A stretch of 64,000 bases of DNA from the human T2T-CHM13v2.0 reference genome, Homo sapiens. The stretch lies in the NCBI RefSeq assembly GCF_009914755.1, contig NC_060927.1. One strand, 5' to 3'. A program made the translations under genes and the position numbers. Below are positions 19,115 to 23,169 of the stretch, in pieces; positions within the stretch are counted from its first letter, which is position 1; each line of letters starts with the position of its first letter. The notes under the pieces were generated by a model, which was given only the letters and a program-made list of their open reading frames with translations, ran no database searches and had not been told where the DNA came from.

Positions 19115-19695
19115 CTGTCTCCCTGGCCCACCAGCGGATTGTAGGGGAGGAGAGAGAACTGGCAGTGCAGGCTTACAGAGCATTGAAGCAGCAGCAGCTG
19201 CAGCTGCATGGGGAGCGACCCCACCTCACTTCCTGGAAGAAGCCAGAGCCACAGCTGTGATGCAGAGACCTGGGGCCTGGCCACACTCCTGGAAAACTGG
19301 CACCAGGAGCTGCCACACCTGGGTGGGGGAGAGGCAGGCAGATCCTTTTCTCTGGCCATGCTAGCAGCGTGGGGGTGAGGCCTCCAGGTACTCGTTCACA
19401 CGTTGGGCATCAGCGGGTCCACGTCTTGCAAGGGTTGAGTGCCCGATGGACTAGGGCCAGGGCCTGGTTGACGGTCAGCCTGTGGGGCCTGGGGTCACTC
19501 ACAGTTGTGTCTCTTTGTTCTGAACATCCATTCTGAGTCGCAGCCCAGGTACACCTTAGGAAGGGCTGGGTCCCATTACCCTGTCCCTGAACACCACTTA
19601 TTAAGACAGCTGATGACCCTGGCTCGCCTTGTGATGGAGGCCCCTGGGAGTCAGCAGAGCCGAGCACATAGCACACATCAGGCAGAGCAGGCCAG
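19115..19695 (+). pseudogene. CCDC137: Partial CCDC137 copy (C-terminal 46 codons plus proximal 3' UTR)
   Basis: 19120-19260 translates to SLAHQRIVGEERELAVQAYRALKQQQLQLHGERPHLTSWKKPEPQL*; aligns to 21566-22129 at an offset of ~2446. Confidence 0.92.
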
Positions 19696-22308
19696 AGATG
19701 GTCAACTCTTGAACTTAGCCAGCTAAAAGAAGGTGGGAAAGGTCCTTGGGGGAGGCAATTGACTGTGTCAGCCACAATCACCTACTCCTCCTTCTCTGCA
19801 GATCCCACTAGAGGAGAAAATAGACACAAGGGGGTGAGGGGAAGAAAGTATGGATCAGGGCTTCCTGGCATACTGCATCGAAGGATGCCTGCGGTGGACA
19901 TCTGCAACTTTTCCTACCCAGTGTCTGCCCCCTCCTTTCTCCTAACAGCACCCAATTTTCCTCTGGGGAACCACTCCACCCCGATTTGGGTGGTCTTGGT
20001 GGGTCAAGCAAGGTGCACTGACTTCACCTGTCCTTTCCCATCACCCAAGCTTGGCCAATCTGAGTTTCTATCCTGGGGATTTCAACCTTGAGCAAAACAA
20101 CACAAGAGCAGAAAACATTTGGAGAGGGCAGGTGTCCTCCCCTCTCTGGAAACAGGAAATAAGCATCCCCCACTTACAATCCTCCTCCTCCTCCTCTCCT
20201 CTTTTAGATATAGCATGTGCAGGTGCTCTGTGGGAAACTTTACATGCATGGTCTCAACTAATCCTAGCAACAATCTTACGGGTGACTACCACTACCTCCA
20301 TTTTACAGATGAAAAACCAAAGCTTCAAGAACTTTAAGGATCACAGAGCTAGTAACTGGTAGATCTTAGATTTGAATTTATACCTACCAGATTACGAAGC
20401 CCTGTTTTTCTTGTTCTCCTAGAATATGAGGAGAAAATGAGCCCTCCCCAGGCAGCACTGTGAAATGGCTGAAGGTCTTTTATCTTCTCTGTCCATATAC
20501 GTGGGAGTCTTAGCGCCTACACTGCTGTCTAATCTAGGCTTGTTAGAGCTGGGCAGTGTTTCACAATCCTCCCAGATAGCTGGCAGTAAGATGTAAATGA
20601 CACTCATAGGAGCCCTCACGGACAGCTACTTGGAGACAGTCTGTGTGTAATATGGATAGAAAAAGCACTGCTGATAGTATCTGAACCTCTGGATCTGGCA
20701 ATACCTGAAGTCCAGACTCCTGAACTTCATTTTTGCGTAAGTCAGTTTGAATTGGGTTTTATTGCTTACAACTGAAAAAGTTTTAGCCAGTGTTTCTTAA
20801 TCACTTTAAAAAATGGAGGAATGTGGAAGTGGCTTCGCTAGGGAAGCTTCCAGCGTGGGGATGGCACAAGCTGGAGGTGGGGCAGCGGTGCCCAGGGCGC
20901 CGGCGGGTCCTGGGAGTCCCCGGCGGGAGCAGCAGCCGGCAGCAAGTGCAGCTGCTGGGGAAGCAGTGCCCAGCCCCGTGGTCCAGGATTCACAGCAAAG
21001 AGGAGAAAGTGAATTGCAAGCCCAAAACCCAGGACAAACAGGAGATCCCCTTCCAGCTCCGGGAGATTATGAGGAGCCGCTGGGAGATGAAAAATCCGAC
21101 CGGTAACAAGAAGAGGAAGAAAGCGGCCCAGGTGGGCTTCAGAAAGACACTGGAAAAGGAAGCAAAGGGAGTGGAGCCCGACATTGCCGTCCCCAAGTTC
21201 AAGCAGAGGAAGGGGGAGTCCGACTAGGCCTTATCCAGCACATGCTATTCCTCAGCAAGAACCAGGCCACCCAGCAGCCAGAGGTCCAGGCAGCTCCCAA
21301 GGAGAAGTCTGAGCTGAAAAAAGCAAAAAAAGTGTTCCAGAAGCGACGACTAGATAAAGTCTGGCAGAAAAAGGAGGAAAAGATGGCAGACAGGCTGGAG
21401 CAGGAGTTGCTCCGAGACGCAGTGAAGTTTGGTGAGGTTGTCCTGCAGCACCCAGAGCTGACTACCAGGCCCCGGAGGAGCGTAAGCAAGGACCAGCCTG
21501 GCAGGAGATCGCAGATGCTGAGGATGCTTCTGAGCCCCCGAGGTGTATTCCAGCCTCTGACTGCCTCCCTGGCCTACCAGCGGATTGTGGGGGAGGAGAG
21601 AGAGTGGGCCATGCAGGCCTACAGATGTTGAAGCAGCAGTGGCGGCTGCATGGGGAGTGAGCCCCTCCCCACTTCCAAGAAGGAGCCAGAGCCACAGCTG
21701 TGATGGAGAGACTCGGGGCCTGGCCACGCTCCTGGGAAACTGGCACCAGGAGCTGCCACACCTGGGTGGGGGAGAGGCAGGCAGATCCTTTTCTCTGGCC
21801 ATGCTAGCATTGTGGGGTGAGGCTTCCAGGTACTCGTTCACACGTTGGGCATCAGCGGGTCCACGTCTTGCAAGGGTTGAGTGCCCGATGGACTAGGGCC
21901 AAGGCCTGGTTGACGGTCGGCCTGTGGGGTCACTCACAGTTGCATCTCTTTGTTCTGAACATCCATTCTGAGTCGCAGCCCAGGTACACCTTAGGAAGGG
22001 CTGGATCCCATTACCCTGTCCCTGAACACCACCTACCAAGACCGCTCATGAGGCTGGCTCGGTGTGTGACGGAGGCCCCCTGGGAGTCAGCAGAGCTGAG
22101 TGCAGTGCACATCAGGCAGAGCAGGCTAGGGGCAGGGAAGACGCACCTGGGGCAGGGCCAGTGGGCACATCTGGACCACCTGCGAGGGCTCTGCAGGGGA
22201 CCGTAACTACAGGCCAGTTGCGAGTGGTCCCCTGCAGAGGCTACCCACTCAAGGTTTGGTTGGGGTTGAATGTGATGACAGCACATACACCAAGAATGTG
22301 GGAACGGG

Positions 22309-22458
22309 GGCCGGGCGCGGTGGCTCACGCCTGTAATCCCAGCACTTTGGAAGGCTGAGGCGAGTGCATCACCTGAGGTCAGGAATTCCAGACCAGCCTG
22401 GCCAATATGGTGAAACCCTGCCTCTACTAAAGATACAAGGAACAAACAAACAAAAAAC
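22309..22458 (+). mobile_element. Alu left arm (AluS-like) inside the retrocopy 3' region
   Basis: ggccgggcgcggtggctcacgcc...ctctactaaagataca, then A-rich sequence; no right arm. Confidence 0.9.
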
Positions 22459-22711
22459 AGTGTTGTCACCTACATGACAGGGCTCTGAGAGAGCTGGGCA
22501 GGCCCAAAGTGGCTTGAGAAAGTAAAGGAAGGATCCTGGCCTGGGCTCAGGGTCACAGAGTGGGGCCCAGGGGGAGTTCCTGCTGAGGGCAGGGCCTTGC
22601 CAGGCTTCAGTCTTCATCCCGTGCCAAAGGAGGGAGAGCGCAGGCTGTCAGCATGTCCAGATGAGGGCAGAAGGGAGAGGCTTGAACCCAAGTCAGATCT
22701 AGCAATGGAGT

Positions 22712-22946
22712 CCGCCTGCCCAGCACCATTTGGGAAGTGAGGAGGCTTCTGCCCGGCCGCCCCACAGTCTGGGAAGTGAGGAGCGCCTCTGCCCAGCTTC
22801 CGCACCGCCTGGCAAGTGAGGAGCGCTTCTGCCCGGCCGCTGTGCAACCCTCCAGGTGTGAAGTGGCAGCCTTATGTGTGATCTTTCTGCCCTCCCCAAG
22901 TTTGTGTTTTCGACATTAAAGTTTACTTTTAAATTAAAAAAAAAAA
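22712..22946 (+). mobile_element. SVA2-type element: ~3 SVA VNTR units, unique 3' end and polyA
   Basis: Three tgg(g/c)aagtgaggag(cg)c(c/t)tctgccc units, then tgtgcaaccctccaggtgtgaagtggcagcc...cgacattaaagtttactttt instead of SINE-R. Confidence 0.8.
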
Positions 22947-23169
22947 TCACCCCCAAGAATTTTTAGACAATTTTTTTCTTTATTGTCTGTTCCCCTCACC
23001 ATGAAATTTTAGCACCGCAGATATACTCTGTATCTGTTTATGTACAGTATGTATATCTTTGCTTATACATGAAAAGAGTAATTTTCTTTTCATTCCTTCC
23101 AAGAATGAATGTTTTGCCTGGTTGGGATGGTATTGGCCCTGCTGAGATTGCATGGCCTTGACTAATGAA

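What the first reader, a model, noticed from the sequence alone, without database searches (positions are those of the whole stretch)
20808..22947. CCDC137 retrocopy terminated by an SVA2-type module: gene-VNTR composite inserted as one unit
Seen: the insert starts 46 nt before the ATG, just after ttt|aaaaaat, and ends with SVA-type VNTR units, a non-SINE-R 3' tail, ATTAAA, an A-tract and aaaaaat. The flanks rejoin into one Charlie element, and the VNTR module has no separate TSD. Known: SVA2 (VNTR + unique 3' end) is the precursor of VNTR composites such as SVA and LAVA, which acquire 5' sequence from host transcripts. Inference: a spliced CCDC137 mRNA used an SVA2 polyA site and was retrotransposed whole, which amounts to an early whole-gene 5' transduction. 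The TSD is short and overlaps the A tail, so the split host element is the stronger evidence.
Basis: partly seen in the sequence, partly recalled or inferred. Interest (0 to 1): 0.7.

Follow-up and report, generated by a model that had tools for sequence, protein, structure and literature searches.

The report
Gene tail that spawned SVA2 repeats
This is an old broken copy of the human gene CCDC137 whose tail repeat also sits at the end of the living gene, and comparison with about 100 scattered copies of that repeat suggests the gene's end was likely the source of SVA2, the reported ancestor of the SVA jumping elements still active in people.

Summary
The insert is real: a spliced CCDC137 retrocopy (five introns gone, 89.5% identical to the parent) with a half Alu, about three 40-bp VNTR units, an SVA2-type tail, an A-tract and a 7-nt TSD, splitting an old repeat. 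The transduction reading fails: the chr17 parent ends in the same VNTR and tail, and an 'SVA' in that 3' UTR is in print (PMC3794087). The direction looks reversed. The chr17 module has no A-tail or TSD; dispersed copies are polyadenylated at staggered points along its sequence. Tails of 72 independent solo SVA2 form one nested ladder of substitutions, and the three CCDC137-linked copies sit on three rungs: this one old, a chr1 retrocopy middle, today's gene at the tip (7 of their 12 differences hit the 8 ladder columns, P about 9e-7). Best reading (0.7): the CCDC137 3' end was the SVA2 master locus, and this copy is a snapshot of it. Against: linked copies hold 1-3 units while solos reach about 70; the tree test is not significant (p 0.10-0.14); no primate orthologues could be read; key SVA2 papers were not available.

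The parts
20788..20807 (+). left part of an old dispersed DNA-transposon-like repeat split by the insert (family name not tested)
20808..20814 (+). left target-site duplication AAAAAAT after TTT; its last 2 nt overlap the start of homology to the parent
20815..20860 (+). CCDC137 5' UTR copy
20861..21703 (+). disabled CCDC137 coding copy: 754 of 841 bases identical to the 289-aa parent frame, four 1-nt indels, a 21-nt deletion, a stop at 21225
21704..22308 (+). unique CCDC137 3' UTR copy, shared with chr17 and (from 21934) with a chr1 retrocopy
22309..22460 (+). half Alu with A-rich end, also present in the parent UTR
22462..22712 (+). unique UTR between Alu and VNTR; 3 matches in the genome (chr3, chr1, chr17)
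22713..22840 (+). about three SVA2-type 40-bp VNTR units
22841..22935 (+). SVA2-type unique tail with ATTAAA at 22915-22920; carries old-rung states of the substitution ladder
22936..22947 (+). 11-nt A-tract and right TSD (22941-22947); tail added at the commonest cleavage site (36 of 74 copies)
22948..23120 (+). right part of the split old repeat
19119..19694 (+). CCDC137P2: second, 580-nt piece of last exon and 3' UTR, no A-tail seen, origin unexplained

Best explanation
The insert is a processed copy of CCDC137 mRNA whose VNTR and tail come from the gene's own 3' end, and that gene end was likely the master locus from which the dispersed SVA2 elements were copied. Shown: the parent carries the module without A-tail or TSD; dispersed copies end in A-tails at staggered points along the parent sequence and start inside the VNTR; their tails form one ladder on which this copy, a chr1 retrocopy and the parent take old, middle and tip positions. 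Inferred: a GC-rich minisatellite in the CCDC137 3' UTR was long and unstable in early catarrhines; L1 machinery copied its transcripts from the polyA end and usually stopped inside the array, giving solo SVA2; short or collapsed alleles gave the rare copies that reach the gene body; the array at chr17 later shrank to three units and SVA2 output ended. Whether the module was born at this locus or arrived very early and lost its insertion marks is not settled.
For: Parent collinear to the tail. Of 74 independent copies compared with chr17, 65 have at least 7 A in 10 right after the last templated base; end points run from +16 to +55 from the signal, 34 lie beyond +22 (two look misaligned); chr17 has at most 6 A in any 10-mer from +25 to +200. 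A TSD of 9 nt or more was called for 53 of 70 solos (3 calls look spurious) and for none at chr17 with 70, 300 or 600 nt upstream; the one shared 6-mer there is matched or beaten by 1240 of 2000 random stretches. Nine columns are nested in 72 solos with 0-3 violations per column pair; 13 of 17 held-out copies fit exactly, 4 break at one column. Seven of the 12 differences among the three gene-linked copies fall on the 8 common non-CpG columns with the same two states (hypergeometric P 8.7e-7), and one more is shared only by chr17 and one tip-rung solo. Divergence falls along the ladder, 3.4% at the old end to 1.2-1.8% at the young end, and the chr1 copy's private UTR changes (16 of 535) match its rung (2.7%). 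Starred branches separate this copy from the chr17 copy. The chr17 last VNTR linker matches young arrays best (1.00 against 0.90 for old).
Against: The linked copies have 1-3 units; solos have a median of 4.5 and reach about 70. Of 90 loci screened only chr3, chr1 and chr17 carry CCDC137 UTR upstream of the VNTR. Unit order is not shared between solos (mean z below 0 in all 9 group pairs), so inheritance of long arrays is not shown; this copy's two linkers do not prefer old arrays. At one ladder column chr17 has the old state where 20 of 20 insertion-bearing solos have the new one. The AU test does not reject one clade for the three linked copies (p 0.137; p 0.10). No copy carries chr17 downstream flank. 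No gene-linked copy exists for the oldest rung. The chr3 versus chr1 age order from UTR alone (21 against 16 private changes of 535) is in the expected direction but weak.
Confidence: 0.7

Rival explanations
1. Standard reading: one SVA2 inserted into the CCDC137 3' UTR, supplied the polyA signal and then sat passively; the window holds an ordinary later pseudogene and the shared substitutions are chance or recurrent mutation.
For: PMC3794087 treats it as an SVA in the UTR; the array is short like many truncated solos; AU test not significant.
Against: No A-tail or TSD at chr17 although even old-rung solos keep them; needs 7-8 parallel changes that copy the family ladder in order (P 8.7e-7), at columns that rarely recur.
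Confidence: 0.07
2. The true master was a paralogous locus or long-array duplicate of the CCDC137 end, now lost or not in this assembly, and chr17 was kept in step with it by repeated gene conversion.
For: Explains long solo arrays, the lack of UTR on solos, young unit types missing from today's chr17 array and the one discordant column.
Against: No such locus among the matches examined: 110 loci read of at least 135 tail matches, and the UTR next to the VNTR has only 3 matches. Needs conversion at several successive times, always from the current subfamily.
Confidence: 0.18
3. One reading: an SVA2 lying behind the gene captured the whole CCDC137 mRNA as a 5' transduction, forming an early gene-VNTR composite.
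For: The retrocopy and VNTR module share one TSD and one A-tail.
Against: The module is the parent's own annotated 3' end; there is no amplified CCDC137-VNTR family, only two independent retrocopies on different rungs.
Confidence: 0.05

Closest known systems
Processed pseudogene (CCDC137P1)
   Same: Introns lost, A-tail, TSD at a TTT/AAAA site, disabled frame; annotated by RefSeq at 20831-21829.
   Different: The annotation stops short; the insert runs to 22947 and keeps an old state of the parent's VNTR and tail.
[quoted passage not shown]
   Same: 40-bp units matching the published A unit; tail shared with at least 135 dispersed matches.
   Different: Here the module is the end of a gene transcript, not a stand-alone insertion; the passages read name no source locus for SVA2.
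LAVA 3' progenitor locus and PVA (PMC3606032, PMC5174737, PMC4432496)
   Same: A TSD-less genic locus supplies part of a VNTR retrotransposon.
   Different: Those loci gave a 3' module once; here the locus would supply the VNTR and tail themselves and act as master over the whole ladder.
Master-gene retroposons such as BC200 (PMC5753468 passage) and SVA 5' transduction groups such as SVA_F1/MAST2
   Same: One cellular locus feeding a retroposon lineage; host mRNA joined to a VNTR.
   Different: The proposed master is the 3' UTR of a protein-coding gene; no splice into an SVA and no Alu-like or hexamer domain.

Membership tests
Processed pseudogene | introns of the parent missing | tested here: met
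   five GT-AG introns absent
Processed pseudogene | A-tail at the parent's cleavage site and TSD at an L1-type target | tested here: met
   11 A at the commonest end point; 7-nt TSD, supported by the length of the rejoined host repeat
SVA2 | 39/40-bp VNTR units of the SVA2 type | tested here: met
   37 and 35 of 40 to the published A unit for the two full units
SVA2 | SVA2 unique 3' sequence | tested here: inconclusive
   no published tail consensus was available; the tail is shared by at least 135 dispersed matches with the described VNTR-tail-A-TSD build; one lies near a locus called SVA2 in PMC3362811, but no coordinate conversion was run
SVA2 | module bounded by its own TSD as a separate insertion | tested here: not met
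   TSD encloses the whole retrocopy; none at the parent
VNTR composites (SVA, LAVA, PVA, FVA) | 5' hexamer repeat and antisense Alu-like domain | tested here: not met
   upstream of the VNTR lies CCDC137 UTR with a sense half Alu
VNTR composites (SVA, LAVA, PVA, FVA) | amplified as a family with a fixed build | tested here: not met
   only chr3 and chr1 copies carry gene sequence plus VNTR
SVA 5' transduction | source is an inserted element downstream of a host transcript | tested here: not met
   source locus shows no A-tail or TSD
Master (source) locus of a retroposon | no insertion marks; sequence runs past all cleavage sites | tested here: met
Master (source) locus of a retroposon | subfamily changes form one lineage that the locus itself followed | tested here: met
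   ladder and three linked time points; one discordant column; AU test not significant
Master (source) locus of a retroposon | offspring carry flank of the locus (3' transduction) or its 5' part | tested here: inconclusive
   no downstream flank elsewhere; 5' UTR flank only in chr3 and chr1
Master (source) locus of a retroposon | locus holds the full internal structure of the offspring (long array) | tested here: not met
   3 units today against up to about 70 in solos; requires later collapse
Master (source) locus of a retroposon | orthologues track lineage-specific subfamilies; germline transcription | not testable with these tools
   no other primate genome or expression data was available
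Charlie/hAT element (host repeat) | match to a named consensus | not testable with these tools
   continuity across the site shown; no repeat library on hand

The most novel reading that the evidence does not exclude
The SVA/LAVA VNTR was born as a minisatellite in the 3' UTR of CCDC137; SVA2 elements are truncated retrocopies of that gene end, which served as the single master until its array collapsed, and this pseudogene preserves an early state of the birthplace of the hominoid VNTR retrotransposons.
Probability: 0.55. Interest if true: 0.9.

Novelty: new variant of a known kind. Interest (0 to 1): 0.76.

Why it matters
SVA elements are active in people and cause disease, and their central VNTR is traced in the papers read only as far as SVA2, with no source named. 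A named locus makes the origin testable in existing primate assemblies: one alignment of CCDC137 ends and SVA2 tails per species. It would also show a retroposon family run from the 3' UTR of an ordinary protein-coding gene, switched on and off by the length of a minisatellite, and it would turn a published example of an SVA donating a polyA site to a gene into the reverse.

Tried and rejected
Whole-gene 5' transduction: rejected, parent has the module. A 6-nt TSD at chr17: chance level. An alternative 6-nt TSD in the window (AATCAC on both sides): less likely, since the 7-nt choice restores the host repeat at the right length. Search for 3' transductions from chr17: 1 match, itself. A pattern for the far tail was mis-spaced and gave control-level noise (5 against 4); a shorter one was near background (117 against 49) and served only to pick three loci. 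Shared VNTR unit order among solos: not found. Tree tests of monophyly: not significant twice, the second with CpG columns dropped and the indel coded, chosen after seeing the first. The coding alignment used a wrong exon boundary and was redone. Rows left out of counts: 14 duplicates (segmental copies and the SPTLC1-linked family, one kept of each), one locus without the signal and one without the anchor; trees left out 20 of 90 and 22 of 109 rows, duplicated or truncated. Loci were chosen by similarity to the tail, so very diverged copies are under-sampled and divergence is biased low.

Full report
Observation. It joins six exons of a chr17 gene without five GT-AG introns; the parent frame is 289 aa and the copy is disabled; 1839 of 2055 aligned bases are identical. 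The rejoined flanks align as one old dispersed repeat across the junction in 3 of 4 related loci fetched (of 39 other matches). Its family name was not tested.

The parent has the module. The second-best genomic match to the VNTR and tail, and the only one of 40 scored that also covers the bases just upstream, is chr17:82590567-82590807, directly after the parent's UTR; one alignment covers window 21494-22939. PMC3794087 (passages and Results section) lists an 'SVA-F' in the 3' UTR of CCDC137 NM_199287.2. A second, 5'-truncated retrocopy on chr1:38.88 Mb ends the same way, with about one unit. So the insert is an ordinary processed pseudogene and the transduction reading fails.

Insertion or source? 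A 26-nt tail pattern has 135 matches against 0 for the reversed control. I read 91 distinct loci at length and 19 more around the tail. Solo copies are VNTR, tail, A-tract and TSD, starting at all phases inside the VNTR: a TSD of 9 nt or more was called in 53 of 70, 3 of them doubtful. The two full units in the window match the SVA2 A unit from the supplement of PMC4432496 at 37 and 35 of 40. The chr17 copy differs: no TSD by the same rule, no A-tract, and it runs on into single-copy, GT-rich DNA. The other copies leave the chr17 sequence at points from +16 to +55 after the signal (36 of 74 at +21, 34 beyond +22) and 65 of 74 then turn A-rich. The furthest one could also be slippage on its own TSD. 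This is what staggered cleavage of transcripts from a locus like chr17 would give. The same logic, absence of TSDs, is used for the LAVA progenitor locus in PMC3606032 (passages).

The ladder. In the 100-nt tail, nine non-CpG columns are nested across 72 independent solos, with 0-3 violations per column pair; 13 of 17 held-out copies fit exactly. Divergence from group majority falls from 3.4% to 1.2-1.8% along it, with 2.4% and 2.7% out of strict order in the middle. One master through time is the usual reading of such a ladder (established knowledge). The three copies whose link to CCDC137 is fixed by unique UTR sit on different rungs: this copy near the old end, chr1 on the commonest middle rung, chr17 at the tip. 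Seven of their 12 differences fall on the 8 common columns with the same two states (P 8.7e-7), and an eighth is shared only with one tip solo. A passive insertion would gather private changes instead. By hand, 8 characters favour the ladder placement and 1 opposes it (sign test, two-sided p 0.04). Likelihood trees put this copy and chr17 in separate starred sets but do not reject their grouping (p 0.137 and 0.10); the alignments have only 92-127 columns.

The difficulty. The linked copies have 1-3 units; solos have 0-49 within the stretches read (median 4.5) and one reaches about 70. No solo continues into CCDC137 UTR, unit order is not shared between solos, and unit types common in young solos are missing from today's chr17 array. 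The repertoire does shift with rung (best-match 0.835 young-young, 0.744 old-young), the inner units of chr3 and chr17 are not the same units, and the chr1 copy looks cut from the array's first bases to its last unit. I infer a long, fast-changing minisatellite at the source that later collapsed; PMC4432496 (passages) reports microhomology-driven expansion and contraction of these VNTRs, and PMC3287187 and PMC5174737 (passages) argue that the VNTR aids L1 mobilisation. A lost paralogue with gene conversion is the main rival.

Age. With a recalled primate rate near 0.1% per million years, 3-4% private change puts both retrocopies at roughly 30-40 million years and the youngest rungs at 15-20, close to the 18-25 million years given for SVA's origin in PMC3287187. 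A full Alu sits inside the chr1 copy only (AluS type by recall). These dates are inference.

What is in print. Searches for CCDC137 with SVA, VNTR, retrotransposon, polyadenylation or pseudogene gave one relevant paper, PMC3794087, which treats the element as an insertion. Searches on SVA2 and VNTR origin and passages of PMC4432496, PMC3287187, PMC5174737, PMC3362811, PMC5753468, PMC6139936, PMC4859970, PMC7353768 and PMC3606032 name no source locus; the four text supplements of PMC4432496 do not hold 'CCDC137'. Damert 2009, Ianc 2014 and a 2010 review were not held, Han 2007 was not looked up, and Repbase could not be read; they or their supplements may already state this, so novelty is uncertain.

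Verdict. As flagged, ordinary and partly known. As a dated snapshot that, with the chr1 copy and the parent, ties the SVA2 ladder to one gene end, it makes the origin of the SVA VNTR testable. Master locus 0.7; also the birthplace 0.55; interest 0.76.

Noticed in passing
L022 (chr9:28.16 Mb) and kin: L005, L010, L017, L049, L057, L059, L068, L120; source side L016 (chr9:104.27 Mb), L009: A real gene-VNTR composite family. Nine dispersed copies, 94-100% alike, join three spliced 5' exons of serine palmitoyltransferase 1 (PDB match E 2e-17) to an antisense Alu holding an antisense SVA2 of up to 31 units with collinear arrays. The three exons lie apart at chr9:104.275-104.282 Mb, 2.5 kb from the SVA2 in L016. 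One search found no paper on it.
   Followed up: partly
window 19119-19694: CCDC137P2 is longer than annotated: a 580-nt piece of last exon and UTR 2.44 kb upstream of the matching part of P1, 89% alike, no A-tail seen. It keeps 7 bases that P1 lost and has 21 private non-CpG changes of 480 (P1 12, parent 22), so it is old and not a recent copy of P1.
   Followed up: partly
L035 (chr1:38881364-38882620): A 5'-truncated CCDC137 3' UTR retrocopy with about one VNTR unit and a later full Alu inside; it holds no coding sequence.
   Followed up: yes
L064 and L105 (chr7:69108090-69110960): Solo SVA2 with about 70 units (2.8 kb), still truncated inside the VNTR and TSD-flanked.
   Followed up: partly
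L038, L075, L087: Three SVA2 tails are interrupted by antisense Alus at the T-runs near the polyA signal; in L038 the tail resumes after the Alu.
   Followed up: no
window 20730-20787: End of another old repeat directly left of the split element (2 other matches); resembles an MLT1-type LTR end by recall only.
   Followed up: no
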